This document shows positions 1 to 56,679 of a stretch of 64,000 nucleotides of DNA, piece after piece (the stretch's first letter is position 1; the number at the start of each line of letters is the position of its first letter). Source of the DNA: an uncultured Gammaproteobacteria bacterium (GTDB lineage Bacteria > Patescibacteriota > Patescibacteriia > Magasanikbacterales > UBA922); the NCBI GenBank assembly GCA_964522435.1, contig CAZFUL010000001.1, forward strand, positions 117,075-181,074, given 5' to 3'. The notes under the pieces were generated by a model, which saw only the letters and a program-made list of their open reading frames with translations, had not been told where the DNA came from and searched no databases. The translations under genes and the position numbers were made by a program.

Positions 1-996
1 TTTCATGTTATTTATAAAACAGATGAAGATGCGGGACGAGAATATGAACTCTCTCATGTCTTAATTGCAAAACACACAGAAGCAGATATTTTACCTCCCT
101 ATAGCGCGTGGAAAACAACAGGGCTATCAGGAAAACAATTAGAACGCGCAGAAGTAGTAACAGATCCAACAACAGGTATGTTACATATTTCTTTACGCTT
201 TGATAAAGAAGGGGCACAACTGTTTGAAGATCTTACGAGAAATAATATTGGTCAGCCTATTGCTATCTTTTTAGACGGCAGCATTATTTCTCAACCAACC
301 GTACAGCAAGCAATTAGTGGTGGAGAAGCGGTAATTACCGGAACCTTTACCTTGCCAGAAGCAAAATTATTGGCGCAACGCTTAAATACGGGTGCCCTTC
401 CTATTCCTATTGAATTAGTCTCACAGCATACGGTAGGGGCAACGCTTGGTGCACTGTCACTCTCAAAGAGCGTACAAGCCGGTATTATTGGTATTGTGAT
501 ATTGATGCTCTTTATGGTGGCATATTATCGCTTACCAGGGGTACTTTCTGTAATTTCCTTACTATTATATATAGCCTTGACATTAGCTATATTTAAGTTT
601 ATTGGTGTTACCTTAACCTTGGCTGGTATTGCGGGATTGATTTTGTCTGTGGGAATGGCGATTGATGCCAATGTATTAATTTTTGAACGTCTCAAAGAAG
701 AACTACGCGCAGGAAAAAATCTTCGCATTGCTTCAGAAGAAGGATTTGTGCGTGCATGGACCTCTATTCGTGATGGAAATGTCTCTACCTTAATTACTTG
801 TGCCATTTTGATTTGGTTTGGTACTAGTTTTGTGCAAGGATTTGCCTTAACGCTTGCTATTGGTATTTGTGTGAGTATGTTTTGTGCGATTACGGTTACC
901 CGTGCATTATTACGTTTTATTATTCCTTGGTTTCCTCGATATGGAAACGCATTATTCTTAGGTGCTCGAAAAGAAGTACCAACCCAAACCGAATAA
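1..996 (+). CDS. secD: Protein translocase subunit SecD, C-terminal portion (5' end lies upstream of window start; frame 1 is open from nt 1)
   Basis: Open frame from position 1 with no upstream stop. C-terminal SecD/SecF-type 6-TM domain (LAGIAGLILSVGMAIDANVLIFERLKEE). Immediately followed by secF. Confidence 0.85.
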   Translation, partial: FHVIYKTDEDAGREYELSHVLIAKHTEADILPPYSAWKTTGLSGKQLERAEVVTDPTTGMLHISLRFDKEGAQLFEDLTRNNIGQPIAIFLDGSIISQPTVQQAISGGEAVITGTFTLPEAKLLAQRLNTGALPIPIELVSQHTVGATLGALSLSKSVQAGIIGIVILMLFMVAYYRLPGVLSVISLLLYIALTLAIFKFIGVTLTLAGIAGLILSVGMAIDANVLIFERLKEELRAGKNLRIASEEGFVRAWTSIRDGNVSTLITCAILIWFGTSFVQGFALTLAIGICVSMFCAITVTRALLRFIIPWFPRYGNALFLGARKEVPTQTE

Positions 997-5089: not shown

Positions 5090-5255
5090 GTTTCGTTATC
5101 GTCGTATTTCATAACAGCAGCTATTGCCTGTTATTATGAAAACCGACGAGTCGTGTGTTACGACTTACGGTCCAGCGGCATTCCTGCCGCGAGCTGCTAT
5201 AACTGACCCAAGCAGTGTAAATAAATGGGTCCCCGTGGCATGAAGGAGAATACCC

Positions 5256-5516
5256 ATGCCCAATCCCGGTGAAACCCCCAGCACCCCTGCCACCACCTCC
5301 ATGGTGGCGCCCGTCCAGCCGGCCGCCGAGGTGCAGCCGGATCTGGCGTCTGTCGCCCCGGCCGAAGAGCCCCCCACCGTCACGGCGGTGGCCTCTGATA
5401 CCGACGGTAACGGGCTCACCGACCGCGTCGTCATGACCGGGGGGGGGATCATCCCCCTGGGAATCGCGGGAGGGGGGTCCCGTCCCGATCGTCCCCGGAT
5501 GCGCGGTAGCAACTAG
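5256..5516 (+). CDS. Possible small Pro/Ala/Gly-rich protein in a very GC-rich islet (uncertain coding)
   Basis: AAGGAG lies 8 nt upstream of the ATG. The region is over 70% GC and has long ORFs in several frames, so the coding call is weak. Confidence 0.2.
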   Translation: MPNPGETPSTPATTSMVAPVQPAAEVQPDLASVAPAEEPPTVTAVASDTDGNGLTDRVVMTGGGIIPLGIAGGGSRPDRPRMRGSN

Positions 5517-5789
5517 CCCCTCGGCGGGACCTCTTTATATGTACGCGTTCTGCGTATAAAGAGTTCATCTTCTGAACGCAGCACCTGGCCGGTCGCGCTT
5601 TTATAAGCGACCCTGCACAAGCGCTTGACTGTCATCCTCTGACATTCGCGCGACCGGCCCCACAAAAAAGTACATCAATAGTGGTGTGCTTTTTTGTTTT
5701 TATGAGGAATACACTGATATGTAACCAAATTGAATTAAAGGAAAAATAATGATAGTCTAACAAATGAAATTGTATTTAATCGTATTATT

Positions 5790-17393: not shown

Positions 17394-17445
17394 CAATTAA
17401 CAATGAACAATTCTTTAAAATTTTTGTTAATTGCTAATTGTTAAA
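17392..17445. promoter_or_regulatory. Perfect 12-bp inverted repeat agcaattaacaa / ttgttaattgct spanning the gatA stop and the LOG start
   Basis: Seen in sequence. AT-rich TTAATTG-type repeats lie between the arms. Confidence 0.3.
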
Positions 17446-18782
17446 TGTTAATTGTCTCTATGGATAAACAATATAGCTTTGGATTAAATGAAACAGGCAA
17501 CTACCGCGAACCGTGGCAGATTTTTCGTATCATGTCTGAATTTGTGGAAGGTTACCAATTTTTAAGCACGCTCAAAAAAGAAGTGACCATATTAGGATCT
17601 GCGCGCTTTTTACCTCATCAAGAATATTACAAAGTTGCGCAAGAGTTAGGCGCACTGCTCGGAAAATCTGGCTATAACACGCTTACTGGTGGCGGACCAG
17701 GGATTATGGAAGCAGCAAACCGTGGTGCGTTTGAAGTAGGGGGAGAATCTATTGGCTTAAATATCGAACTCCCGCTTGAACAAAAACTCAGTCCTTATGT
17801 AAAAAAGTCTGTATCGTTTTCGTACTTTTTTACTCGCAAAGTCATGTTAACTTCACCCGCACATAGTTTTGTGTTTTTTCCCGGAGGCTTTGGGACCTTA
17901 GACGAATTTTTTGAAGTAGTCGACCACATGGATATTGGCAAAATGAGTGAAGTGCCCGTTATTTTGGTAGGAAAAGAATATTGGGAACCCTTGGTTGCCT
18001 TTTTAGAAGATCGCTGTTGTGCGCATGGAACAACCTCGCATACCCGTATTCAATCATGGAAAATCGTTGAAACGGCAGAAGAAGCCTTTGCCCTTATTCA
18101 AGAACATGGAAAAGAAGCAAATAATTGCGAGCTTTCTCCCGCGCGCTTTCATAGTGGAGAATATGATGTGGATTGGAAAGTATTCCGCATTATGGCAGAA
18201 CTGGTGCAAGGCTTTGAGTTTTTAACCGGATTAGTAGAAGACGTCACCGTGCTTGGGACAAAATCCATGGAGCCAACAAATCCTTTTTACGAACAGGCGT
18301 ATCAATTAGGTCGTTCTTTAGGCGAAAATGGCTATGCCGTGGTTACCGGAGGAGCAACGGGCGTTGCCGAAGCAGCAAACAAAGGAGCCATGGCGGTCGG
18401 TGGAGAATCCATTGGGATTGGTATGGAAGTAGAAGGGGAGAATCGCTTAAACGAATTTGTGAATCGTTCTATTACCTTTAAATTTCCCTTTACCCGTAAA
18501 CTTATTGTCACGGCGCCATCCAAAGCCTTTGTCTTTTTTCCTGGTGGATTTGGTACCTTGCATCAACTGTTTGAAGTATTAACCTTAATACAAACCGGCA
18601 AAATGCCTCGCGTGCCAATTATTTTATTTGGAGAAACCTATTGGCAAGGGGTTGATGACTTTATTCGCAATGTGTTGTCTGAACGCTTGCAAACCATTAA
18701 TGTAGAAGATACCAAACTCTATACTATTGTTGATTCTGTAGAAGACAGCCTTACCCTTATTAATGATTTTCGGGGGAAATAA
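17445..18782 (+). CDS. Tandem LOG-family (TIGR00730 / Rossmann-fold nucleotide-binding) protein
   Basis: Two copies of GGGPGIMEAANRGA and PGGFGTL(D/H)E motifs. 445 aa. Confidence 0.75.
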   Translation: MLIVSMDKQYSFGLNETGNYREPWQIFRIMSEFVEGYQFLSTLKKEVTILGSARFLPHQEYYKVAQELGALLGKSGYNTLTGGGPGIMEAANRGAFEVGGESIGLNIELPLEQKLSPYVKKSVSFSYFFTRKVMLTSPAHSFVFFPGGFGTLDEFFEVVDHMDIGKMSEVPVILVGKEYWEPLVAFLEDRCCAHGTTSHTRIQSWKIVETAEEAFALIQEHGKEANNCELSPARFHSGEYDVDWKVFRIMAELVQGFEFLTGLVEDVTVLGTKSMEPTNPFYEQAYQLGRSLGENGYAVVTGGATGVAEAANKGAMAVGGESIGIGMEVEGENRLNEFVNRSITFKFPFTRKLIVTAPSKAFVFFPGGFGTLHQLFEVLTLIQTGKMPRVPIILFGETYWQGVDDFIRNVLSERLQTINVEDTKLYTIVDSVEDSLTLINDFRGK

Positions 18783-25640: not shown

Positions 25641-25676
25641 ATGGGTATAGTTACTATCTGCATTTTTTATATATAA

Positions 25677-25765
25677 ATCATAGCAAATATAGTACGAAAC
25701 ACAAACCTTTGCTATACTTTTTTTAGTATATCCTAGTATTATGCCCCCCTCAATTCCCTACACCC
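25677..25765. repeat. Direct repeat copy 1 (about 89 bp) flanking the mrr cassette
   Basis: Near-identical to 26748-26838 with 1-2 mismatches. Contains the palindromic tatac-T8-gtata element and the first codons (MPPSIPYTL) of a truncated copy of the YgjP-like gene. Confidence 0.8.
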
Positions 25766-26653
25766 TTAAGTTTCTTCAAAAAAGTCTTCGTCTATTTCTT
25801 TTACTTCGTATTTATTTTTAACTTGTAACCCCACTCCATATTCGTGCATTAAATCAACAAGTTTTTTGCCGTCAATGAGTATTATCGAATGATGTGCCTC
25901 TCTTGCTTTGTGTATGGCAGATTCATCGAAAGAAGAAGTCGTGACAAAAACTCCTTTACTTGTATCTCCGCTCATTGCTCCTATAAAATTACGAATCTCT
26001 TTTTCTCTTATTTTATTTTCATTATAACGCTTAGCTTGGATATATATTTTTGCTAGGCCTAATTTGTCTTCGTTAATAATACCATCTATTCCTCCATCAC
26101 CACTTTTCGAAGTTTCGATAAAATCTCCGTAGCCCATCTTATTTAATAGTAGCAAAACAACTTTTTCAAAATAATAAGGGTCTATTTCTTTAAGTCTTTC
26201 GAGAAGCTCATTTTTGACTTGCTTTTCAATAGCACTAAATCCCGAGTCAATCATATCTTGCGGAGAAGCATTTTCATCTTCCAAATCTATTTCAGAATCT
26301 TTTTCTTCTTTTTTTGCTTCCCTATGCGCTTGAAAATCAGGATCGTTAATTAAATCTGATAATGTTAAATTTCCACTCTTTACAACTTTTAAACCTTTTT
26401 CCGATATTTTTACCATCGCTCTTTCTGGTTGTTCAATCATTTTTGCCTGTTTGAGATATGCTTTTCCCCAGCCAATTCTATTTAATATTAGAATGTCTCC
26501 ACTCTTCGTCTTTTTTTCTAATAATTCTTCGCTCAAATTTGAATAATATTCATCCCGAACACGCTTTCGTAATTCGTTGTAATGTAAAATTTGACCATCG
26601 CTCAGTACGTTTAATATTGGTATAAATGTTTCGTGATATTTTGGTAGATCCAT
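25766..26653 (-). CDS. mrr: Mrr-family restriction endonuclease (type IV, modification-dependent)
   Basis: N-terminal winged-helix Mrr_N and C-terminal Mrr_cat motifs GDGGIDGI...IQAKRY. 295 aa. Confidence 0.8.
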   Translation of the reverse strand: MDLPKYHETFIPILNVLSDGQILHYNELRKRVRDEYYSNLSEELLEKKTKSGDILILNRIGWGKAYLKQAKMIEQPERAMVKISEKGLKVVKSGNLTLSDLINDPDFQAHREAKKEEKDSEIDLEDENASPQDMIDSGFSAIEKQVKNELLERLKEIDPYYFEKVVLLLLNKMGYGDFIETSKSGDGGIDGIINEDKLGLAKIYIQAKRYNENKIREKEIRNFIGAMSGDTSKGVFVTTSSFDESAIHKAREAHHSIILIDGKKLVDLMHEYGVGLQVKNKYEVKEIDEDFFEET

Positions 26654-26747
26654 ATTTTTGAGTTAATTTATCAATATTTTGCTTTTTTAAAAAATTTTTA
26701 TCATAAAAAAAGCGTATTTAATATAACTTACTTTTACCCAACCTTAT

Positions 26748-26838
26748 AAATCATAGCAAATATAGTACGAAACACAAACCTTTGCTATACTTTTTTTAGT
26801 ATATCCTAGTATTATGCCCCCCTTAATTCCCTACACCC
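26748..26838. repeat. Direct repeat copy 2, carrying the promoter and start of the YgjP-like gene
   Basis: See copy 1. The ATG of ORF 26814 lies inside the repeat. Confidence 0.8.
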
Positions 26839-27374
26839 TGAAAAAAAACGCTAAGGCTAAGTACCTGCGTATTGTTATTAATAGGGATGCCACTGTTTCT
26901 GTGGTGGCGCCAACACGGGTGAGCATGAAAGAAATAGAACAATTTATTGCAGATAAAACACTGTGGATACAAAAGCACGTGAGAGCGTTTCAAAAAAAGA
27001 AAGAAGCCGTAACCCCCGTACTTCCTGTAGGGTTTTCTCGTACAGACTACCATTCCTGCGTGGCACGAGCCAGAAAATTAGTAAAAGATCGCTTGGCACA
27101 TTTTAATGCTATCTATCAATGTCATTTTGCTCGGGTGAGTATAAAAAAACAAAGCACGGTGTGGGGGAGTTGCTCGGCAAAAAAGAATTTGAATTTTAAT
27201 TATAAAATAGTCTTATTACCCCCACATTTAGCGGATTATATTATTGTGCATGAACTCTGTCATTTGAAAGAAATGAACCATGGCAAACAATTTTGGTTGT
27301 TGGTAGCAAAAACAATACCCGAACATAAACAATATAGAAAAGAATTAGTGGCCTATGAAAGATATTTTTCTTAA
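26814..27374 (+). CDS. DUF45 / YgjP-like metal-dependent hydrolase (HExxH)
   Basis: HELCHLKEMNH zinc-binding motif near the C-terminus. 186 aa. Confidence 0.7.
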   Translation: MPPLIPYTLKKNAKAKYLRIVINRDATVSVVAPTRVSMKEIEQFIADKTLWIQKHVRAFQKKKEAVTPVLPVGFSRTDYHSCVARARKLVKDRLAHFNAIYQCHFARVSIKKQSTVWGSCSAKKNLNFNYKIVLLPPHLADYIIVHELCHLKEMNHGKQFWLLVAKTIPEHKQYRKELVAYERYFS

Positions 27375-27383
27375 TCTGTTTTT

Positions 27384-28127
27384 ATGACCATGCAACTGTT
27401 GGGTGTCTTTTTTGTTGGCCTCGCCGCGAGTTTTTTAAGCGGTATTGCGGGAGGTGGCGCTGGGCTTATTACCATTCCCTTATTAATATTTTTAGGAATT
27501 GATCCAAAAATTACCGCAGCAACAACTACCTTTGGGGGATTAGGATTGGGGATAGGCGCGTTGTTTCGCTTTCGTAAGGAAAAAAATTTACGAAAACAAT
27601 ATAGTAAACCTTTCACTCTTATTTCTATATTTGCCGGATTGTGTGGACCCTTTATATTATTTTTCTTAGAGAGTAGTTGGGTAAAAATCGTTGTGGGTTC
27701 TATTATATTACTTATTGTTCCTTTGTTTTTGTTAAAGAAAAAGATTGGAACAGAACAAAAAGAAACAAGTCAAAGAAAAAAAATTATTGGCTATCTCTTG
27801 TATGCGTTGCTGTTAACCTTGCAAGTGGCCTTTGGCTCTGGGATTGGCATTGCTATCATTTTTGTCTTGGTGGCATTTTTTGGGCTTACCTTAATAGAAA
27901 CAAGTGCAACATTACGGTTACCACAACTGGTTTCTTCTTTTATCTCTCTGTTTTTATATGGCTATCAAGGATTATTAGATTATCGTTATGGAATAGTGCT
28001 TATGCTTGCGATGATTTTGGGAGGGTATCTGGGTTCTCATGTGGCAATAAAAGCGGGTAATGCGGTTATTCGCTGGGTTTTTGCTGCTATGGCAGCGATC
28101 CTCGCGGTAATCTTGTTGATTCAATAA
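27384..28127 (+). CDS. TauE/SafE (TSUP) family membrane transporter
   Basis: GIAGGGAGLITIPLLIFLG repeat motif. Polytopic. Confidence 0.75.
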   Translation: MTMQLLGVFFVGLAASFLSGIAGGGAGLITIPLLIFLGIDPKITAATTTFGGLGLGIGALFRFRKEKNLRKQYSKPFTLISIFAGLCGPFILFFLESSWVKIVVGSIILLIVPLFLLKKKIGTEQKETSQRKKIIGYLLYALLLTLQVAFGSGIGIAIIFVLVAFFGLTLIETSATLRLPQLVSSFISLFLYGYQGLLDYRYGIVLMLAMILGGYLGSHVAIKAGNAVIRWVFAAMAAILAVILLIQ

Positions 28128-28131
28128 AACA

Positions 28132-28164
28132 AAAACCCTATACCGTTCTGGTACAGGGTTTTTG
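28132..28164 (+). terminator. Rho-independent terminator (ccctgtacc.../ggtacaggg + T-run)
   Basis: aaaaaccctataccgttctggtacagggttttt. Confidence 0.55.
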
Positions 28165-28238
28165 AATTGCTCCGACGGGGGTGGGGAACTGCCGAAGCAA
28201 TTCATCCGCGTCGTCGGGGCGGAACTCCTTGTTTGTCG

Positions 28239-28760
28239 TCAGGGGGTCCCTGTATTGTACGGGTCAAGGAAGATGAACCGTTCTTCTTTGGGATAGTACC
28301 CTGGGTATACCGTCCAGACCGTGAAGTGCCATTGCTGGTTGCGCTCTTTGCGCATCCGAACTTTCATGGTGAGTTGGGTAGTTTTTGGAGCCAGGATGAG
28401 CTCCTTGGGGAGGACGGGAATCCCGGATGACGGCCTTCTCAGCTGCTGTTGCAAGTATGGCTGGGTGGGGACACGGGTCACCCAGCCAATATGGCGGGGA
28501 AGACTCAGGGTGATCGAATGATCTTCTTTACCCCGTTCAATTGCGCTGCGCAGGGCCGCGCCCAAGTGTGCAGCAACCTCTTGGTCATCGACGCAGGCTT
28601 GCAGGTTTGGCCAGGCAGAAATATTTCCGGCCAGTGGAGCGCCTGCCAGACGGAAATGGTCAGTTTGTACCTGGACTATGGTCTCGTGGGGAAAGATGAC
28701 CTTGACCACCGGTGCGCCGTCCGGTCCCATAGGAAGGATCAGATATTTGGCGAAAAGCAT
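28239..28760 (-). CDS. Hypothetical protein (173 aa) in GC-rich islet C
   Basis: RBS aaggaa upstream of the ATG on the minus strand. GC about 55%. The + strand ORFs here are shadow ORFs. Confidence 0.45.
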   Translation of the reverse strand: MLFAKYLILPMGPDGAPVVKVIFPHETIVQVQTDHFRLAGAPLAGNISAWPNLQACVDDQEVAAHLGAALRSAIERGKEDHSITLSLPRHIGWVTRVPTQPYLQQQLRRPSSGIPVLPKELILAPKTTQLTMKVRMRKERNQQWHFTVWTVYPGYYPKEERFIFLDPYNTGTP

Positions 28761-28772
28761 GAACGTTTCCTT

Positions 28773-29375
28773 TCAGTTGTTGTGTTTTTTGTTCATGTGG
28801 CGAATTGCGATTGCCACACTGCCGTTGCCCATCACCCCGATGAGGATGGGGTGTACGAGGGATACCAGTTGTTGCTCTGGCTGCCAGTGGATGACCAGGT
28901 TCGTAGTCATGATCATATACGACACCACCGCAATGTACCAGGGCAAGATGTTTTCTTTGTTGCCTTTGAGTACACCGAGGACGGTGGGAATGAACGATAG
29001 CACATATACTGCTTGAAGCAGCAAGTTGGCCATTACATCATCACCGCTGGTACGCCAGTAGTAGACAATGACGCCGGCGATTGCCAGAATCATCCATTCT
29101 GTTGGCCCGATTTTGCTAAAGCGCTTGTTGAACGCTGCGTAGCCAAGGATCAAAAGCGATCCGAGGCATGCTGCGCCAGTTGCTGCCCAGCGGCTCAGGT
29201 CACCATCTACCACTTTGAAATAGGTGACTGAGTTGACCACATTGACGCTGCCCCAAATTGCCCAGGTTGCGGCGTTTGGGGTGATATTGCCCTTGATCAC
29301 GTAGTACAGGTACATGCTGAGCAAGAGTAGCACACCCGACATTGAAATGAGTGAAAGAATATCAATGAGCGCCAT
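28773..29375 (-). CDS. Hypothetical polytopic membrane protein (about 200 aa) in GC-rich islet C
   Basis: RBS aaggag 6 nt upstream of the internal ATG (MALIDIL...). The longer ORF to 29429 was rejected as an upstream extension. Confidence 0.45.
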   Translation of the reverse strand: MALIDILSLISMSGVLLLLSMYLYYVIKGNITPNAATWAIWGSVNVVNSVTYFKVVDGDLSRWAATGAACLGSLLILGYAAFNKRFSKIGPTEWMILAIAGVIVYYWRTSGDDVMANLLLQAVYVLSFIPTVLGVLKGNKENILPWYIAVVSYMIMTTNLVIHWQPEQQLVSLVHPILIGVMGNGSVAIAIRHMNKKHNN

Positions 29376-31702: not shown

Positions 31703-31785
31703 TTATTTATACACAAGACAAGGTTTGACAAACATCTATTTAGGGCGTAGGGTAGAAACATCGTATGAAAAGATACTCAGTAAAT

Positions 31786-31876
31786 AATCATCGTCGTTAC
31801 AGCGACCTCGGATAACTTCCGCTAGGAATTGTTATCATTGAGGTCGCAGCAATCCCGCTATAATCGGGATTTTTTA
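31786..31876 (+). ncRNA. Candidate small structured RNA, unit 1 of a tandem paralogous pair (conserved 5' box, long hairpin, intrinsic terminator)
   Basis: aatcatcgtcgt box, then hairpin gacctcggataac...gttatcattgaggtc, then atcccg-ctataa-tcgggat plus T6. Confidence 0.4.
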
Positions 31877-31916
31877 TTTATTTATGAATAAGTGATATAT
31901 GAATTGTTTTGTGTGT

Positions 31917-32010
31917 AATCATCGTCGTCGCGTGGACCTCCGATAACATTCGTTAGGTATTGTTATCGTTGAGGTCCGCTATATCGCCACATTGGGCGAT
32001 ATTTTTTTTC
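31917..32010 (+). ncRNA. Candidate small structured RNA, unit 2 (structure conserved with sequence changes)
   Basis: aatcatcgtcgt box, then hairpin ggacctccgataac...gttatcgttgaggtcc, then atatcgcc-cacatt-gggcgatat plus T8. Confidence 0.4.
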
Positions 32011-32134
32011 CGTACATTATGGGAAGAGAAGGACAGACGATAGCAATATCTGATAGTAGCCTCTTCTCATAATCAGTAGCAATGCTGTTGCTGAACGTGG
32101 GAAGAGTAACGCTGTTGTATAGGAGGACGTTGTC

Positions 32135-32950
32135 ATGGCACCATACTTTTCTTGGCTGGTAGCGTCTGGAGTTATTGAACGAACAATGCCCGATGGAGGG
32201 GTGGTTCATGTTTCCACCTTGCCTGACGCAGCGGTGGCAGCTGCGGGCTGGTGGGGGACGGAAAATCTGCGTCCCGAGTATTGCTTGAGCGGCGGCTGCT
32301 TGTTTGATGCGCGTTGGCAGCTGCAGTTTCCTGCACAAAACAAAGGACACCAAGGCGCTGTTCGTACCTTGTCCTTGCCGCGTGAGCGCGATGATGCGTA
32401 TGCGCGTTTGAAGAAAGGACAAACGCCACTTGCCCTGCACCTGCCGAAAGGGCCTGGCGTGTATCAGCAGACGCTCATTCGCTGGCAAGCAGCGGTGTTT
32501 CGTCGCTTGCAGCCCACACAGATTCTGTACCATCTTCCGACCGATGAATATCGTGTCTACATTCAAGAGATGGAACAACATCTGGGCTATGCCGTTCCTG
32601 CTGCCTACACACAGCTTGACCAGCTCGCTGTCTCTATTCGTGCGCTTATGGTGCGGGAGTTTGGGGCTGCTCTCATGGCACGTGTTCGCTTCGTGCGTCC
32701 TATGCACACGCATGGAGTGAAAGATACGACACAGTCCTACCTGCATCCCTACTTGTTTCCGGAGTTGTATGGGATCACTCCTGCCAATACCGTTGGTGTG
32801 GAAGATCTTGTTGAACTCCGTCTTGCCTACGAAGCATGGCGCATGCGCGGACACCAGATTTCGGTGTACGCAGCTGCCCTTGCCCTGCCTCCTCCCTACG
32901 CAGATAAAACGCTGCGGCCTGGGGAATTCACGACCGTTGAGCTGATGTGA
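32135..32950 (+). CDS. Hypothetical protein (271 aa) in GC-rich islet D, strong SD
   Basis: taggagga lies 8 nt upstream of the ATG. GC is well above the flanks. The antisense ORF 31979-32854 is judged a shadow. Confidence 0.5.
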   Translation: MAPYFSWLVASGVIERTMPDGGVVHVSTLPDAAVAAAGWWGTENLRPEYCLSGGCLFDARWQLQFPAQNKGHQGAVRTLSLPRERDDAYARLKKGQTPLALHLPKGPGVYQQTLIRWQAAVFRRLQPTQILYHLPTDEYRVYIQEMEQHLGYAVPAAYTQLDQLAVSIRALMVREFGAALMARVRFVRPMHTHGVKDTTQSYLHPYLFPELYGITPANTVGVEDLVELRLAYEAWRMRGHQISVYAAALALPPPYADKTLRPGEFTTVELM

Positions 32951-33011
32951 TATACACCTCAGCTCCGGTCACCATCCCATAAATAGTTATTTTTTATTAT
33001 ACTATATCCAT

Positions 33012-47942: not shown

Positions 47943-48173
47943 ATGTCAGTAACTGTTTACTCCACTCCATCTTGTCCTTTTTGCCACAAAGCAAAAGACT
48001 ATTTAACAGAAAAAGGAATTGCGTTTGAAGATGTGAATGTTGCCGAAGACGAAGTTCGTGCGCATGAAATGATTGAAAAATCCGGGCAAATGGGTGTCCC
48101 TGTGTTGGACATCAACGGCAAGATTATTGTTGGCTACGATGTGCCAAAAATTGATGCGGCACTTTCTGCATAA
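47943..48173 (+). CDS. Glutaredoxin-like protein (NrdH/Grx, CPFC active site)
   Basis: VYSTPSCPFCHKAK...GVPVL fold motifs. 76 aa. Confidence 0.8.
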   Translation: MSVTVYSTPSCPFCHKAKDYLTEKGIAFEDVNVAEDEVRAHEMIEKSGQMGVPVLDINGKIIVGYDVPKIDAALSA

Positions 48174-48255
48174 CAACTATTTATTTATCTAAAGAAAAAA
48201 TCCACTGTAACAGGTGGTTTTTTTATACCTACCCTGTGATATACTTATTAAACAT

Positions 48256-48876
48256 ATGAAATATATTCCCTCCACTATTATTTTTATTTTTTTATGTTGC
48301 CTTCCCAGTAGTACATTGGCGCATCCAGGTAGAACAGATGGATCAGGTTGTCATACTTGTCGTACAAATTGTAGCGATTGGGGTTTAGATACAGGTGAGT
48401 ATCATTGTCACAATGCAAAAGCGCTTCCTCAACCAGAGGAGCCGGTTACGAGTCATTACGGAGAACAGGGAACAGGCTATACCACTCCTGTGGCGGAACA
48501 TACCCCCGTAGCAGAAGTGGTTGTACCTTCTGTTAATCCTGTTGTAAAAGAATTAGAAAGAGAGCCTGTGAGTACTATCGAGCGTCAAGAAGTGTCAAAA
48601 GATCCTATTGTTTCGGTATCACCAACAAAGAAGGTAACAGATGAAATAAAAGAAGAATTGCTTGTTCCACTCCCTGCTGTTGAAAAAAAACAGATTCCGA
48701 AACAACCACAAAATGAAGGAGCTATTCCTCCAACTTCTTCTGTAAATATTATTTCTGACCTGAGCAGACCCCACAGACAAGAAGAAAAAAAACTTGAGAC
48801 AACTGTACCCGTAAAAAAAGAAAAAGCACCTCGTTGGGTATTGCGTTTTTTGAAGTTTATTATTACCCGAACGTAG
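48256..48876 (+). CDS. Secreted YHYH-motif protein
   Basis: Signal peptide, then GEYHCHN (YHYH family) and a Cys-rich N-terminal region. Start at ATG 48256. Confidence 0.55.
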   Translation: MKYIPSTIIFIFLCCLPSSTLAHPGRTDGSGCHTCRTNCSDWGLDTGEYHCHNAKALPQPEEPVTSHYGEQGTGYTTPVAEHTPVAEVVVPSVNPVVKELEREPVSTIERQEVSKDPIVSVSPTKKVTDEIKEELLVPLPAVEKKQIPKQPQNEGAIPPTSSVNIISDLSRPHRQEEKKLETTVPVKKEKAPRWVLRFLKFIITRT

Positions 48877-48895
48877 TAAAAAATATAAAGAAATA

Positions 48896-48925
48896 AAAAT
48901 TCCACATGCTGTGGAATTTTTTATA
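48896..48925 (+). terminator. Rho-independent terminator (attccaca-tgct-gtggaat + T-run)
   Basis: Seen in sequence. Confidence 0.6.
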
Positions 48926-49070
48926 TTGTGAACCTAAGAATAATTGATTGGAATTATAGTCTATGAAGAATTGAAGCAATGGAAAAAACTAAGAGAATCT
49001 TATTGACATAATTATCATTTTATGATATTGATCTCTGATCAATCAAATTTCTACCAGAGGAGGTACTCCT

Positions 49071-49463
49071 GTGCTGAATAAAATCCTGCTCATTGAAGAC
49101 GACATCGAGACAGGGATCTTGATCCGGGGGGGGCTGCAGGGCGTAGAGGATGAAAACTGGGAACCCCTGTATGACGTGTTCTACGCAACCAACCTGAACG
49201 ATGCACGGTTGCGGCTCGACAAAGGGGACATCGACCTCTTGATATCCGACACCTGCGTCGATAGCAAGAACCGGCCTGATGCCCACGTGCTGATCGAGGA
49301 GGTACGGCAACGCTACCCCAATATGCCGATTCTCGGAATGTCTAGTTCTGACTTCTACCGAGATATCATGTTGGAGGCGGGATGCAACCGCTTCTACACC
49401 AAATCACCCCGTGACCTGCAGTTCGCAGGGCTGCTGGAATTAGTGCAGGAGCTTCTGCCTTGA
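49071..49463 (+). CDS. Stand-alone CheY-like receiver domain protein, GTG start, in GC-rich islet F
   Basis: gaggagg lies 7 nt before the GTG. ILLIEDD, phospho-acceptor D in DLLISD, and T/K positions are conserved. GC is about 55% against AT-rich flanks. Confidence 0.6.
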   Translation: MLNKILLIEDDIETGILIRGGLQGVEDENWEPLYDVFYATNLNDARLRLDKGDIDLLISDTCVDSKNRPDAHVLIEEVRQRYPNMPILGMSSSDFYRDIMLEAGCNRFYTKSPRDLQFAGLLELVQELLP

Positions 49464-49564
49464 CGTAGCGACCCTCCATTTGTGAAGACTCAAAGGCAAG
49501 CGCGAGTATAAACGCTTCCAATCCCCATCCTAAAATTATTTTGAAAAAAAGTAGTTTGAGGATA

Positions 49565-49598
49565 AAAAATCACCGTTAAAACGGTGGTTTTTTATTTC
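49565..49598 (+). terminator. Bidirectional rho-independent terminator (caccgtt-aaaa-cggtg flanked by A- and T-runs)
   Basis: Seen in sequence. Confidence 0.6.
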
Positions 49599-49632
49599 TG
49601 TGACCCCGGTGGGGAATCTCACTGCTCGTGAC
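49599..49632 (-). pseudogene. Degenerate partial copy of the tRNA-Lys 3' end (variable loop, T-arm, acceptor 3' strand)
   Basis: tgtgaccccggtggggaatctcactgctcgtgacca versus the intact gtgaccccggtggggatcgaacccacgacca. About 30 nt of homology with a 7-nt insertion and substitutions. Confidence 0.45.
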
Positions 49633-49787
49633 CAGCTAAAGCGCTGGTCACTGCGCTTTGAGAAACCTTCGGGTTTCTCAATACTCATCCTCCGCAAGTA
49701 AGGGGGCGCTGCCCCCTTACCATCCCCCAATTCGATCCCCCTCGACCCAAAAATAAAACCCCCACATAAGTGGAGGTTTTATTTTAG

Positions 49788-49860
49788 TGACCCCGGTGGG
49801 GATCGAACCCACGACCATTGGCTTAAAAGGCCACTGCTCTACCGGCTGAGCTACAGGGTC
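49788..49860 (-). tRNA. tRNA-Lys (anticodon UUU); CCA not encoded
   Basis: Manual cloverleaf: acceptor GACCCTG/CGGGGTC, D-arm GCTC-AGCCGGTA-GAGC, anticodon loop CTTTTAA, T-arm GTGGG-TTCGATC-CCCAC. Confidence 0.85.
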
Positions 49861-49930
49861 ATTATTTTATAGAGAAATAATCGTTGACTATGATATACTA
49901 TAGCCTGAAAAAAGTCAATAATATTTTTCT

Positions 49931-52567
49931 ATGGATATTCACGCAATGAGTATAGCACAAACAGTGGCGCAATATAAGACCCATGAGACAAAAGGCTTAA
50001 AAACCGCTGAGGCACAAAAACGGCAAGCCTTGGGGAAAAATATATTGCCACAAACGCAAGCAAAAGCAAATCGGATGCGCATTTTTTTACATCAATGGAA
50101 AAGTCCATTGATTATTATTTTATTAGTCGCCGCAACGATTAGTGGTATTTTGGGTGAAACCGTCGATATGGTAATTATTTATGTCACCGCATTAGTAAAT
50201 GCCATTATTGGATTTTTTCAAGAATATAAAGCCAATGCTGCGTTAGAGCGCTTGCAACATTTTGTTTCATTTTATTCATTTTGTTTACGAGATGGAAAAA
50301 AACAGCGGGTATCGAGTGATGAATTGGTTTGTGGAGACATTGTCTTTTTAGAAGCAGGGGATTATGTTCCTGCTGACGGACGCTTACTTATTGCGAATGA
50401 ATTATCCATAAATGAAGCAGCGCTTACCGGAGAATCGCAGCCCGTGCTAAAAAAAACGGCTATTTGTGATGCTGCACTGCCCTTGGCGGAAAGAATAAAT
50501 ATGGTATTTAAAGGAACGGCTGTAATAAACGGGTCTGGGCAATTTATTGTGACGCAGATTGGTATTGATACGCAATTAGGAAACATTGCCATGCTGGTAA
50601 AAGAAACAAAAGATGAATTGACTCCCTTACAAAAACAATTAGAATTGGTGGCAAAAAAATTGAGTATCATTATCATTATATTAGCGCTGAGTATTTTTAT
50701 TATTGGTTTGTTATTTGGCAAAGATCAATACACGGCGTTTGAATTATTTGAAACCGCAATCGCTGTGGCTGTTGCGGCAATTCCTGAAGGATTAGTTATT
50801 TCATTAACCGTTATTCTCGCTATTGGTATGCAGTTTATTTTAAAACGGCATGCCCTGGTGCGTCGTCTGGTTGCCGCAGAAACCTTAGGATCGGTGAGTG
50901 TTATTTGTACAGATAAGACAGGCACCTTAACAGAAGGAAATATGTCTGTGGTGCAAATGTACACGGCTGAGGGAATGATAGAAGGAATTGCATTAAAACA
51001 ATTGAGCGATATGTCTGATGCCCGATTGGCCTTAGATATTGGGGCATTATGTAACAATGCAATAGAACATACGAAAGAGGGCAAGACCGTCTATTTAGGT
51101 GATACCACAGAGACTGCCTTACTCGCCGCTGCGCATCGTGCAGGTATTAACAAACAGGCATTGGAAAAAGACATGCCTCGTTTGCAAGAGTTGCCCTTTT
51201 CGAGTGAACGCAAATACATGGCAACGCTGCATCGGTTTGGAAAAGGAAAACGCCTATTAGTAAAAGGCGCACCAGAAATTATGTTGGATGCGTCAGCGTT
51301 GTATATAGACAGCGGGAAACAAAAAAAATTATCTGCAAAACAACGAACATTCTTTTTATCACAAGCAGCAGGCGCAGCTGCCGCAGGTTATCGTACCCTT
51401 GCGTTATGTTATAAAGAGAGTGAAAGTAACAAGGTACAACAGAGCGATATTGATGCACTTGTATTTGTTGGCTTGGTGGCGATTGCAGATCCGGTAAGAA
51501 GTGATGTAAAAGAAATGTTGGGTCTGGCACAGCAAGCGGGTATTCGCGTTATTATGATGACGGGGGACCATGCTGATACCGCAAAAGCGATTGCAAAACA
51601 ATTAGGATTATTTGATGCAGAGAGTAACCAGCAGGTCTGTGAAGGAAAAGAGTTAGATACCTTAACGACCGCACAACTGAAAAAAACCTTGTCGCAGGTA
51701 ACGGTATTTGCCCGTGTTGCTCCAGAACACAAAATACGCTTAGTACAACTCTTGCAACAACAAGGAGAAGTGGTTGCGATGACCGGAGACGGCGTAAATG
51801 ATGCCCCTGCTATTAAAGCGGCGGATATTGGTATTGCGGTTGGGTCTGGAACAGACGTAGCAAAAGAAACAGCAGATATGGTGTTGTTGAATGATAGTTT
51901 TTCTACCATTGTTGCTGCGATTCAAGAAGGCAGAAATATTTATCAAAATATAAAAAAAATAGTGTTGTATTTATTGTCGAGTAGCTTTGCGGAAGTGGTG
52001 ATGATTACGGGCAGTATTTTAGCAGGCTTGCCAGTGGCTGCATTACCTGCACAAATTTTGTGGGTAAATGTGCTGCAAGATTCTTTTCCTACCATGGCGC
52101 TGGCCTTTGACCGTTCTGATAAAGATGCGATGAGTGATCCGCCACGAAAAAAAGATGAACCGCTTATTGATAAAGACATGAAAATCATGATATTGTTAAA
52201 GAGTATTCTTTCAAATATTGCGCTTTTTTGTATCTTTGTCTACATCTTAAAAAGCACAGAAGATGTTGCATTGGCACGAACCATGGTGTTTGTGGGTTTT
52301 GCGGTCGATGCGTTGTTTTACATCTTTTCTATTCGCAGTTTGCGACATTCTGTGTGGCAAATTAATCCCTTTGGAAATAGATATTTACTGGCGGCCATTG
52401 CCTTTGGGTGGATTATGCTGGTCGCGGCTATTTATGTAGCGCCATTACAATTTTTTCTCCATACTGTGCCGCTCAGTCTTACCCACTGGGGAATGATGAT
52501 TGCCTTTGGTATATTTAACCTCTGTATTATGGAGGCAATGAAACGACTCTTTTTTATAAAAAAATAA
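49931..52567 (+). CDS. P-type cation-transporting ATPase (type IIA-like)
   Basis: DKTGTLT phosphorylation site, TGES, MTGDGVNDAPA hinge and 10 TM. 878 aa. Confidence 0.9.
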   Translation: MDIHAMSIAQTVAQYKTHETKGLKTAEAQKRQALGKNILPQTQAKANRMRIFLHQWKSPLIIILLVAATISGILGETVDMVIIYVTALVNAIIGFFQEYKANAALERLQHFVSFYSFCLRDGKKQRVSSDELVCGDIVFLEAGDYVPADGRLLIANELSINEAALTGESQPVLKKTAICDAALPLAERINMVFKGTAVINGSGQFIVTQIGIDTQLGNIAMLVKETKDELTPLQKQLELVAKKLSIIIIILALSIFIIGLLFGKDQYTAFELFETAIAVAVAAIPEGLVISLTVILAIGMQFILKRHALVRRLVAAETLGSVSVICTDKTGTLTEGNMSVVQMYTAEGMIEGIALKQLSDMSDARLALDIGALCNNAIEHTKEGKTVYLGDTTETALLAAAHRAGINKQALEKDMPRLQELPFSSERKYMATLHRFGKGKRLLVKGAPEIMLDASALYIDSGKQKKLSAKQRTFFLSQAAGAAAAGYRTLALCYKESESNKVQQSDIDALVFVGLVAIADPVRSDVKEMLGLAQQAGIRVIMMTGDHADTAKAIAKQLGLFDAESNQQVCEGKELDTLTTAQLKKTLSQVTVFARVAPEHKIRLVQLLQQQGEVVAMTGDGVNDAPAIKAADIGIAVGSGTDVAKETADMVLLNDSFSTIVAAIQEGRNIYQNIKKIVLYLLSSSFAEVVMITGSILAGLPVAALPAQILWVNVLQDSFPTMALAFDRSDKDAMSDPPRKKDEPLIDKDMKIMILLKSILSNIALFCIFVYILKSTEDVALARTMVFVGFAVDALFYIFSIRSLRHSVWQINPFGNRYLLAAIAFGWIMLVAAIYVAPLQFFLHTVPLSLTHWGMMIAFGIFNLCIMEAMKRLFFIKK

Positions 52568-56632: not shown

Positions 56633-56679
56633 CAGAAATGACAATTAACGATGAGCATTTAACAATTAACAAAATATAT

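What the first reader, a model, noticed from the sequence alone, without database searches (positions are those of the whole stretch)
49599..49860. Partial degenerate duplicate of the tRNA-Lys 3' end about 155 bp beyond the intact gene: att-site-like integration scar
The intact tRNA-Lys(UUU) (49788-49860, - strand) ends ...TGGTCGTGGGTTCGATCCCCACCGGGGTCA. At 49599-49632 a second sequence reads ...TGGTC-ACGAGCA-GTGAGATTCCCCACCGGGGTCAC in the same orientation. Integrase-mediated insertion at a tRNA 3' end duplicates the tRNA 3' part at the distal junction. The tiny spacing suggests a decayed remnant, or that the GC-rich islet F cargo is what remains of the element. No integrase gene is present.
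Basis: seen in the sequence. Interest (0 to 1): 0.5.

Follow-up and report, generated by a model that had tools for sequence, protein, structure and literature searches.

The report
Relic pseudo-copy beside tRNA-Lys gene
The second copy of the tRNA-Lys 3' end is real: it is the tail of a decayed, hairpin-filled extra copy of the tRNA gene, a kind of relic that in related bacteria surrounds a tiny nuclease gene living next to tRNA genes, so an integrase scar is the less likely reading.

Summary
The last 16 nt of tRNA-Lys(UUU), TCCCCACCGGGGTCAC, recur exactly 187 nt downstream on the same strand, at 49600-49615. The match is 24/26 over 49590-49615, and 0.02 such matches are expected by chance. 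Each copy has its own terminator. Between them lie an inverted T-arm fragment, three perfect hairpins found nowhere else in the window, and a fragment equal to tRNA positions 22-29.

No integrase is present. The same syndrome recurs in relatives, always matching the host's own tRNA: L003 (at both tRNA-Lys and tRNA-Gln), L153/L001 (tRNA identical to the window's), L158, L145, L089, L002 and L081. It also occurs at tRNA-Asn and tRNA-Leu in unrelated genomes. These are partial tRNA copies that break or resume in the T loop, have arms replaced by GC-rich hairpins, and often flank an 80-93 aa GIY-YIG nuclease ORF of the UPF0213/Slx1-like type.

The closest known analogue is phage SegB, a GIY-YIG endonuclease that recognises the tRNA T arm and drives tandem tRNA+nuclease amplification.

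I read the window's feature as an ORF-less relic of such an array (confidence about 0.5). An integrase scar is not excluded (about 0.2). The relic itself is modest. The wider syndrome was not found described in the searched literature.

The parts
49787..49860 (-). Intact tRNA-Lys(UUU) gene. No CCA is encoded. It is 100% identical to the tRNA-Lys of relatives L001/L153.
   Evidence: ARAGORN. Rfam tRNA, 70.4 bits. Comparison with relatives.
49890..49918 (-). Promoter-like site (TTGACT, 17 nt, TATCAT) directly upstream of the tRNA. There is no room here for an upstream pseudo-copy or an ORF: the ATPase gene starts at 49931 on the other strand.
   Evidence: Consensus scan, 10 of 12 matches. Sequence reading.
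49750..49785 (-). Terminator T1, a hairpin (16-nt arms, 94% complementary) followed by a T run, immediately 3' of the intact tRNA.
   Evidence: Inverted repeat I2. Fold.
49731..49740 (.). GGGGATCGAA, an inverted copy of the tRNA T-loop/T-stem piece TTCGATCCCC. In the predicted fold it pairs with the distal copy (GAUUCCCC) and closes a three-hairpin junction.
   Evidence: Inverted repeat I6, 10 nt, 100% complementary. Folds.
49698..49720 (.). Perfect hairpin a: GTAAGGGGGC-AGC-GCCCCCTTAC (10 bp). No T run follows.
49658..49681 (.). Perfect hairpin b: TTGAGAAACC-CGAA-GGTTTCTCAA (10 bp).
49628..49651 (.). Perfect hairpin c: GTGACCAGC-GCTTTA-GCTGGTCAC (9 bp). Only 18 perfect hairpins (stem of 8 bp or more) exist in the 64 kb, and these three lie within 93 bp.
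49620..49627 (-). GAGCAGTG, equal to tRNA positions 22-29 (D-stem 3' strand and the start of the anticodon stem). It lies 4 nt 5' of the exact block. The T-arm motif GGTTCGA is missing between them.
   Evidence: Weak on its own (p about 0.04).
49590..49615 (-). Distal copy of the tRNA 3' end. The exact 16-mer TCCCCACCGGGGTCAC is at 49600-49615 (tRNA 59-74). A further 10 nt at 49590-49599 match the post-tRNA sequence at 8/10.
49562..49595 (-). Terminator T2 (hairpin plus T run) after the distal copy. It is readable on both strands, so it probably also terminates the convergent ORF 49071-49463.
   Evidence: Inverted repeat I1. Terminator scan.

Best explanation
The distal sequence is the 3' end of a surplus, disabled copy of the tRNA-Lys gene lying in tandem behind the functional gene. 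It is an ORF-less relic of a tRNA-gene-associated GIY-YIG nuclease cassette.

What is shown: in related Patescibacteria and in unrelated bacteria, small (80-93 aa) UPF0213/Slx1-like GIY-YIG ORFs sit directly beside an intact tRNA gene. They are flanked by partial copies of that same tRNA. Upstream copies keep about positions 1-27 and 43-55 and stop in the T stem or T loop. Downstream copies start in the D loop and keep the exact 3' end from about position 58. In these copies the anticodon arm and/or T arm are replaced by perfect GC-rich hairpins.

What is inferred, by analogy with phage T4/T6 SegB: the nuclease breaks the tRNA gene around its T arm. Recombinational repair then creates tandem units of tRNA, terminator and ORF. 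Surplus tRNA copies survive only once disabled and no longer carrying the T-arm motif. Recombination between the repeats can remove the ORF again.

The window would then show the end state, in this order: promoter, intact tRNA, T1, hairpin-filled remnant, exact 3' end, T2.
For: 1. Recurrence with host-matched sequence. A close downstream copy of the tRNA-Lys tail occurs in the window (+187), L003 (+132), L089 (+88) and L145 (+83 and +385). Each is identical to its own tRNA although the acceptor stems differ between genomes.

2. Best comparator. L153 has a tRNA-Lys identical to the window's. It reads, in order: promoter; 5' pseudo-copy; GIY-YIG ORF whose stop codon is nt 8-10 of the tRNA; intact tRNA; terminator; partial copy with two hairpins ending in the exact CCCCACCGGGGTCAC; second terminator. 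The downstream half has the same architecture as the window. In L001, a strain variant, the same pieces are ordered differently, which indicates recombination among the copies.

3. The closest relative, L158 (ATPase 70% identical), has an ORF-less pseudo-copy with two tandem perfect 9-bp hairpins.

4. The ORFs are GIY-YIG (Pfam E 1e-11 to 1e-14) and match the UPF0213 structures 1zg2 and 1ywl.

5. The syndrome is general. It occurs at tRNA-Asn (L154, L161, L162), at tRNA-Leu (L155) and at an unidentified tRNA (L160). Of the top 120 family members, 43 end in peptides that translate 'tRNA D-stem 3' strand plus CCCGAC hairpin', against 1 of 506 control windows.

6. Breakpoints cluster in the T loop, and the T-arm motif GGTTCRANYC is intact in only 3 of 21 pseudo-copies. 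The window's copy keeps positions 22-29 and 59-74 and lacks the motif.

7. Perfect GC-rich non-terminator hairpins occur at 10.5 per kb inside pseudo-copies against 0.18 per kb elsewhere in the same loci. The window's three are unique in its 64 kb.

8. L003 carries homologous inserts (GAGAAGTTTACCCG.CGTA.CTC; 0 of 1000 shuffles reached the score) at both tRNA-Lys and tRNA-Gln.

9. Known analogue. SegB recognises GGTTCRANTCC and cuts near the tRNA 3' end (PMC2330249). It drives tandem tRNA+segB amplification by homologous recombination, with a junction between the segB 3' end and the tRNA 5' end (PMC13096335).
Against: - The window has no GIY-YIG ORF, so the link rests on architecture alone.
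- The window's hairpins are not of the two recurrent sequence types (CCCGAC, TCCGCC).
- Its insert shares nothing significant with L003 or L153 beyond terminator T tracts.
- The D-arm fragment is only weakly significant.
- No near-identical strain was found that would show gain or loss. The best relative is 70% identical at protein level.
- Nuclease activity, its target and any role in the duplications are untested.
- The ORFs lack the DNA-binding domain that SegB has and belong to the Slx1-like lineage, not the homing-endonuclease lineage (PMC1564403).
- More distant members of the family (L103, L087) are not next to tRNAs.
- Four of the nine ORF contexts were found through the tRNA-Lys neighbourhood, and three were picked by their tails. 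Only two (L154, L155) are unbiased samples.
Confidence: 0.5

Rival explanations
1. Integrase att scar. A tyrosine- or serine-recombinase element integrated into the T-loop-to-3'-end segment of tRNA-Lys, duplicating the core. Nearly all of it was later deleted, leaving a 171-bp attL-attR remnant, comparable to a cis-mobilizable element (CIME).
For: - There is a direct repeat of a contiguous block that starts at the end of the T loop and reaches 10 nt past the tRNA. This is the classical T-loop sublocation of tRNA integration sites (my own knowledge of Williams 2002; not checked here).
- The proximal copy carries its own terminator.
- Empty sites exist in relatives.
- A classical case is present in an unrelated locus: L109, tRNA-Thr, with a 48-nt copy 7.2 kb away.
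- The downstream region is variable and contains GC-rich genes.
Against: - There is no recombinase among 36 window ORFs, nor in any comparable locus.
- The T loop in the distal copy is shortened to 3-4 nt, where a normal 6-8 nt overlap region flanked by both T-stem strands would be expected.
- Homologous inserts occur at two different tRNAs in L003.
- The same scars in relatives accompany GIY-YIG ORFs and upstream 5' pseudo-copies. Integration at a tRNA 3' end does not produce 5' pseudo-copies.
- The hairpin cluster and the D-arm fragment are unexplained by this model.
Confidence: 0.2
2. Spontaneous local tandem duplication of the tRNA gene and its terminator, by slippage or unequal crossing-over with no selfish element involved. 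The second copy then decayed neutrally through deletions and palindrome-forming repair.
For: - The repeat extends beyond the tRNA into the start of the terminator (24/26). T1 and T2 are loosely similar, but no more so than other terminators in the window (family D2).
- In L154, L160 and L089 the duplicated unit clearly includes downstream flank and terminator.
Against: - It does not explain why the syndrome recurs at several tRNA isotypes in many lineages, together with one particular ORF family and two conserved hairpin designs.
- It does not explain why the 16 nt stay exact while everything 5' of them is scrambled.
- The two other tRNAs in the window show nothing similar.
Confidence: 0.15
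3. The segment between T1 and T2 encodes a structured small RNA that ends in a tRNA-like 3' strand, for example a processing, decoy or regulatory RNA. The repeat would then be kept by selection.
For: - The predicted structure is strong. For 49600-49748 (minus strand), MFE is -73.9 kcal/mol with z = -6.5. For T1 through T2, z = -9.0. The fold is an outer stem plus three hairpins, with its own terminator.
- The 3' acceptor strand is kept exact in all downstream copies.
Against: - There is no Rfam family.
- No homologous sequence or common fold appears in relatives, so covariation cannot be tested.
- There is no convincing promoter after T1.
- The z-score is driven by three perfect hairpins, which is equally expected from DNA-level palindromes.
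Confidence: 0.08

Closest known systems
SegB of phages T4/T6: a free-standing GIY-YIG homing endonuclease in the tRNA gene cluster (PMC2330249, PMC13096335)
   Same: - It is a GIY-YIG nuclease gene embedded among tRNA genes of many isotypes.
- Its recognition site is the conserved T-arm motif, with the cut near the tRNA 3' end. That is the segment where the breakpoints seen here cluster.
- It generates unstable tandem repeats of tRNA plus nuclease gene by homologous recombination, with the junction between the nuclease 3' end and the tRNA 5' part. The ORF-to-tRNA fusions seen in L153, L002, L145, L154 and L160 look the same.
   Different: - SegB is a phage protein of about 220 aa with a DNA-binding domain, in the homing-endonuclease/UvrC lineage.
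- The ORFs here are cellular and 80-93 aa, consisting of the catalytic domain only, in the Slx1-like/UPF0213 lineage. They are almost absent from phage records.
- Hairpin-substituted pseudo-tRNAs are not described for SegB.
- The window itself has no nuclease gene.
- No activity has been tested.
UPF0213 / COG2827, the prokaryotic Slx1-like minimal GIY-YIG proteins (PDB 1zg2, 1ywl; PMC1564403)
   Same: The relatives' ORFs match these by sequence (E 1.7e-7 and 4.5e-5). They share the small size and the E..IK.WKSRK..LI motif.
   Different: - The family has no established function. It has been predicted to act in break repair, and Slx1 itself is structure-specific.
- I found no description of an association with tRNA genes and pseudo-tRNA arrays in the searched library.
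attL/attR duplication by tRNA-targeting integrative elements and their decayed derivatives (CIMEs); tRNA gene fragments reviewed in PMC9897764
   Same: There is a direct repeat of the tRNA 3' part downstream of an intact tRNA. Sites are occupied in some relatives and empty in others.
   Different: - No recombinase is present.
- The enclosed segment is tiny.
- 5' pseudo-copies occur in relatives.
- Arms are replaced by hairpins.
- Several tRNA isotypes are affected by homologous inserts.
Group I introns in Patescibacteria tRNA genes (PMC13011429)
   Same: Both concern the same phylum, tRNA genes as targets of selfish elements, and occasional homing-endonuclease ORFs.
   Different: Those introns sit at position 35/36 inside tRNA-Asn and tRNA-Asp and are spliced. 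Here the tRNA is intact, the extra material lies outside it, and there is no intron-like RNA.

Membership tests
Integrase-generated att duplication at a tRNA gene (integrative element or CIME remnant) | Direct repeat of a contiguous 3' part of the tRNA at the distal junction | tested here: met
   16/16 exact and 24/26 extended, on the same strand, 187 nt apart.
Integrase-generated att duplication at a tRNA gene (integrative element or CIME remnant) | A tyrosine or serine recombinase gene inside or next to the repeat-bounded segment, or at least in the neighbourhood | tested here: not met
   The segment is 171 bp with no ORF. There was no recombinase Pfam hit in 36 window ORFs. The rest of the genome could not be examined.
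Integrase-generated att duplication at a tRNA gene (integrative element or CIME remnant) | Specificity of one element family for one tRNA site | tested here: not met
   L003 carries homologous inserts behind both tRNA-Lys and tRNA-Gln. The same syndrome occurs at Asn and Leu elsewhere.
Integrase-generated att duplication at a tRNA gene (integrative element or CIME remnant) | Precise presence/absence polymorphism at the repeat in close relatives | tested here: inconclusive
   Empty sites exist (L083, L051, L127, L085, L086, L004), but only in genomes 50-58% identical at protein level. No close strain was found.
SegB-type free-standing GIY-YIG homing endonuclease at tRNA genes | GIY-YIG ORF adjacent to the tRNA | tested here: not met
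   None in the window (tblastn; profile). It is met in relatives L001/L153, L002, L089, L145, L154, L155 and L160-L162.
SegB-type free-standing GIY-YIG homing endonuclease at tRNA genes | Nuclease domain joined to a C-terminal DNA-binding domain (about 220 aa) | tested here: not met
   The relatives' ORFs are 80-93 aa and the GIY-YIG domain covers nearly all of each. SegE/T5orf172 and TIGR01453 hits are sub-threshold.
SegB-type free-standing GIY-YIG homing endonuclease at tRNA genes | Cleavage of tRNA genes directed by the T-arm motif GGTTCRANTCC | not testable with these tools
   Indirect evidence only. Breakpoints of pseudo-copies cluster at positions 52-62, and the motif is lost in 18 of 21 copies.
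SegB-type free-standing GIY-YIG homing endonuclease at tRNA genes | Tandem repeats of tRNA plus nuclease gene, with the junction between the ORF 3' end and the tRNA 5' part | tested here: met
   Seen in relatives only: L160, L154, L145, L155, L153, and in the tails of 43 of 120 proteins. The window keeps only the tRNA-derived remnant.
UPF0213/COG2827 (prokaryotic Slx1-like minimal GIY-YIG) | Sequence similarity to the family and single-domain size | tested here: met
   This holds for the relatives' ORFs (alignment A2). It does not apply to the window, which has no ORF.
Known structured RNA family (Rfam) | Match to a covariance model at or near the gathering score | tested here: not met
   Only the intact tRNA passes. 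All other hits in 49450-49950 are far below threshold and are driven by terminators.

The most novel reading that the evidence does not exclude
The relic points to an undescribed and widespread class of selfish element. In this class, minimal Slx1-like (UPF0213) GIY-YIG nuclease genes parasitise tRNA genes of many isotypes in Patescibacteria and other bacteria. They ride on the tRNA promoter and surround themselves with pseudo-tRNA copies whose anticodon and T arms are swapped for conserved perfect hairpins. Those hairpins could be cis-acting sites for a structure-specific nuclease, or RNA 3' ends for the ORF. ORF-less, hairpin-filled units like the window's would be their non-autonomous or extinct derivatives. 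If true, this would give a biological role to a large family of 'conserved hypothetical' nucleases.
Probability: 0.3. Interest if true: 0.7.

Novelty: new variant of a known kind. Interest (0 to 1): 0.5.

Why it matters
- Annotation. Short tRNA-end repeats in Patescibacteria should not automatically be read as integrase att sites or island boundaries. Here they mark surplus, disabled tRNA copies.
- Biology. The comparison suggests that the large UPF0213/COG2827 family of tiny GIY-YIG nucleases includes many members that live beside tRNA genes in arrays of hairpin-modified pseudo-tRNAs. The family has about 4,500 relatives in one capped search, two solved structures and no established role. This gives a concrete, testable hypothesis: a SegB-like nuclease acting on tRNA genes in cellular genomes.
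- Assembly. It may also explain why contigs of these organisms so often break at tRNA-Lys (L001, L150-L152, L158, L159, L089).

Tried and rejected
- Chance match: rejected.
- Conserved terminator unrelated to the tRNA: rejected. The repeat lies in the tRNA body and each copy has a different terminator.
- Second tRNA gene or tmRNA: not called by either tool.
- Group I intron remnant: no RNA model hit, and the known Patescibacteria tRNA introns sit elsewhere.
- Integrase in the window: none found.
- GIY-YIG ORF or remnant in the window: none.
- Homology of the window's insert to inserts in relatives: only terminator T tracts and an 8-mer.
- Other copies of the insert or its hairpins in the window: none. 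In viral contigs: none.
- The source genome or a close strain: exact look-ups of two window proteins found nothing. The best relative is 70% identical and its contig ends inside the tRNA. The 62% relative had no DNA available.
- The GC-rich receiver-domain ORF as cargo of the element: it lies outside the repeats.
- CCCGAY hairpins upstream of tRNA-Gly in L001, L005 and L085: these turned out to be ordinary terminators of the preceding gene. The motif alone is therefore not diagnostic.
- Literature on GIY-YIG plus pseudo-tRNA or hairpins in bacteria: nothing found in six searches.

Full report
**What is in the window**

The window is about 40.5% G+C. By its P-type ATPase it belongs to Candidatus Magasanikbacteria, in the Patescibacteria/CPR. 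tRNA-Lys(UUU) lies at 49787/49788-49860 on the minus strand. It sits 70 bp from the divergently transcribed ATPase gene and has a good promoter-like site directly upstream.

Reading 3' from the tRNA on its own strand one finds, in order:
- a terminator hairpin, T1 (49750-49785);
- GGGGATCGAA (49731-49740), the reverse complement of the tRNA's own T-loop/T-stem piece;
- three perfect hairpins of 9-10 bp (49698-49720, 49658-49681, 49628-49651);
- GAGCAGTG (49620-49627), equal to tRNA positions 22-29;
- four bases;
- TCCCCACCGGGGTCAC (49600-49615), equal to tRNA positions 59-74;
- a second terminator, T2 (49562-49595).

**Checking the observation**

The 16-mer occurs only at these two places in 64 kb. 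With up to two mismatches allowed, 0.02 matches are expected and no shuffle gave two. The ungapped repeat is 26 nt at 24/26 and runs 10 nt beyond the tRNA.

Aligning the 85 nt 5' of the block with tRNA 1-58 gives a score that 84 of 2000 shuffles reach. The distal copy lacks the T-arm motif GGTTCGA and is not called as a tRNA.

The three hairpins are exceptional. The window has only 18 perfect hairpins with stems of 8 bp or more, most of them terminators, and these three lie within 93 bp. The segment folds very stably (z = -6.5 for the insert, -9.0 including both terminators) into an outer stem plus three hairpins. It matches no Rfam family.

**Related loci**

I fetched loci through the neighbouring ATPase from species-representative genomes and from metagenomes. 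Pairing of tRNA-Lys with the ATPase is conserved in Magasanikbacteria.

Several relatives have a plain site, with the tRNA followed by one terminator: L083, L051, L127, L085, L086, L004.

Others carry partial copies of their own tRNA-Lys close by:
- L003 has a 21-nt copy 132 nt downstream, behind a terminator and a GC-rich insert.
- L089 and L145 have 32-nt copies, with the anticodon arm replaced by a hairpin.
- L001, L002, L019, L081 and L158 have 5' copies upstream of the intact gene.

The copies always match the tRNA of their own genome, although the acceptor stems differ between genomes.

L003 also has a second case behind tRNA-Gln. Its insert shares GAGAAGTTTACCCG.CGTA.CTC with the tRNA-Lys insert of the same genome, and no shuffle in 1000 reached that score.

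**The associated gene**

In L145, L089, L001 and L002 an 80-93 aa ORF lies between or next to the copies, on the tRNA strand. All four are GIY-YIG domains. No such ORF exists in the window.

L153 is the most informative locus. It is a strain close to L001 and its tRNA-Lys is identical to the window's. It reads, in order: promoter; 5' pseudo-copy with an altered anticodon arm, broken in the T loop; ORF whose stop codon is nt 8-10 of the tRNA; intact tRNA; terminator; partial copy running from the D loop onward, with hairpins in place of the anticodon arm and T loop, ending in the exact CCCCACCGGGGTCAC; second terminator. The part downstream of the tRNA has the same architecture as the window.

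L001 has the same pieces in another order. The window's closest relative, L158 (70%), has an ORF-less 5' pseudo-copy with two tandem perfect hairpins.

**Generality**

- next to tRNA-Asn in an unrelated genome (L154);
- inside a tRNA array next to tRNA-Leu in an alternative-code CPR genome (L155).

In both cases there are pseudo-copies up- and downstream, and the anticodon and T arms are replaced by YCCCGAY...RTCGGGR hairpins.

A profile search found 4,544 relatives. Of the best 120, 43 end in peptides (VESR, GRVPT or EHPD types) that are the three reading frames of 'tRNA D-stem 3' strand plus CCCGAC'. Only 1 of 506 control windows does so. Three such cases checked at DNA level confirmed this (L160-L162).

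Over 21 pseudo-copies at 13 tRNA sites:
- upstream copies keep positions 1-27 (plus 43-55) and end at 52-56;
- interrupted downstream copies resume at 55-62;
- only 3 copies keep the T-arm motif.

Perfect GC-rich non-terminator hairpins are 58-fold enriched inside the copies.

The ORFs match the UPF0213 structures 1zg2 and 1ywl. Dunin-Horkawicz et al. class these as prokaryotic Slx1-like minimal GIY-YIG nucleases (PMC1564403). The ORFs are nearly absent from phage records, and their DNA signature is absent from viral contigs.

More distant family members (L103, L087) are not beside tRNAs, so the association does not cover the whole family.

**Mechanism**

Shown: the architecture, its recurrence, the ORF family, the breakpoint clustering and the hairpin enrichment.

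Inferred: the cause. The best analogue is SegB of T4/T6, a free-standing GIY-YIG endonuclease in the phage tRNA cluster. SegB recognises GGTTCRANTCC and cuts near the tRNA 3' end (PMC2330249). It was recently shown to drive unstable tandem amplification of tRNA plus segB by homologous recombination, with the junction between the segB 3' end and the tRNA 5' end (PMC13096335).

By analogy I propose four steps:
1. The small nucleases break tRNA genes around the T arm.
2. Repair yields tandem units.
3. Surplus tRNA copies persist only when disabled and motif-free.
4. Recombination between repeats deletes the ORF.

For the window, recombination between a 5' pseudo-copy and the intact gene would restore 'promoter-tRNA' and leave only the downstream relic. 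I put about 0.7 on the relic belonging to this class of pseudo-copies and about 0.5 on the whole statement including the cause.

**Rivals**

- Integrase scar (about 0.2). It fits the contiguous T-loop-to-3'-end block and the existence of empty sites. It does not fit the absence of any recombinase, the shortened T loop, the 5' pseudo-copies in relatives, or homologous inserts at two different tRNAs.
- Plain tandem duplication without a selfish element (about 0.15). It does not explain the recurrent association.
- Functional RNA (about 0.08). It has only the fold in its favour.

**Unexplained**

- It is not known why the arms are replaced by perfect hairpins, or why two hairpin designs (CCCGAC and TCCGCC) recur across unrelated genomes and tRNA isotypes while the flanks match each host. 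Possible readings are cis sites for a structure-specific nuclease, RNA 3' ends for the ORF, disabling of surplus tRNAs, or fold-back repair scars. I could not decide between them.
- The window's own hairpins are of neither design.

**Novelty and verdict**

Free-standing GIY-YIG endonucleases at tRNA genes are known from T-even phages. Tiny Slx1-like GIY-YIG genes in cellular genomes, embedded in hairpin-modified pseudo-tRNA arrays, were not found in six full-text searches. That is not proof that they are undescribed.

The window's feature is an ORF-less relic and in itself modest. Its value is as a pointer to that syndrome and as a caution against reading such repeats as att sites.

Noticed in passing
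window 25672-26842: An Mrr-type restriction endonuclease gene (25766-26653, minus strand; Pfam Mrr_cat and Mrr_N) lies between two 98-nt direct repeats (25672-25769 and 26745-26842, 98% identical). The stretch is AT-rich with locally reversed GC skew. It looks like an inserted cassette.
   Followed up: no
window 5114-5692; 28008-29350; 32132-32989: Three further GC-rich islets (60.6%, 52.8% and 55% G+C against 40.5% overall). Their ORFs have no Pfam match, for example an 86-aa Pro/Ala-rich ORF at 5256-5516. The third islet is preceded by a 61-nt repeat (31785-31845 and 31916-31976, 82% identical). None contains tRNA fragments or the hairpins of the finding.
   Followed up: partly
window 49071-49463 (+): A GC-rich (about 55%) 130-aa ORF with a sub-threshold receiver-domain match (Response_reg, E 1.7e-4, below the Pfam cut-off). 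It converges on the tRNA locus and shares terminator T2. It lies just outside the repeat-bounded segment. It is probably a foreign gene, but its origin was not determined.
   Followed up: partly
window 47943-49500 compared with the locus of P0010: Gene content between the glutaredoxin gene and tRNA-Lys/ATPase differs between relatives. The 62% relative has NUDIX, M78 peptidase, an unknown ORF and CutA1. The window has a 220-aa unknown ORF plus the receiver-like ORF. The region behind tRNA-Lys is therefore a variable spot.
   Followed up: no
window 17422-17456 and 56640-56674: A 35-nt inverted repeat (83% complementary) rich in TTAACAATTAAC. The second arm lies directly 3' of tRNA-Thr(CGU). Its meaning is unknown.
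   Followed up: no
L001 (contig start), L150-L152, L158, L159, L089 (contig ends): Contigs of several independent assemblies end inside or right at tRNA-Lys or its copies. This is what repeated tRNA pieces would cause in short-read assembly.
   Followed up: partly
L015 7884-9200 (same as L095): tRNA-Gln has a 19-nt copy of its positions 54-72 lying 1.24 kb downstream. The repeats enclose a 277-aa ORF with no Pfam match. There is no GIY-YIG and no integrase. This is another T-loop-to-3'-end duplication, with unknown cargo.
   Followed up: partly
L002 13690-13850: A tRNA-Asn-like 5' half is interrupted right after the anticodon GTT by structured sequence. It is probably a group I intron at position 35/36, as described for Patescibacteria (PMC13011429).
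   Followed up: no
L162 2051-2332: A second, different GIY-YIG ORF (93 aa) lies 270 bp downstream of the tRNA-Asn cassette. GIY-YIG genes can therefore accumulate at one tRNA site.
   Followed up: no
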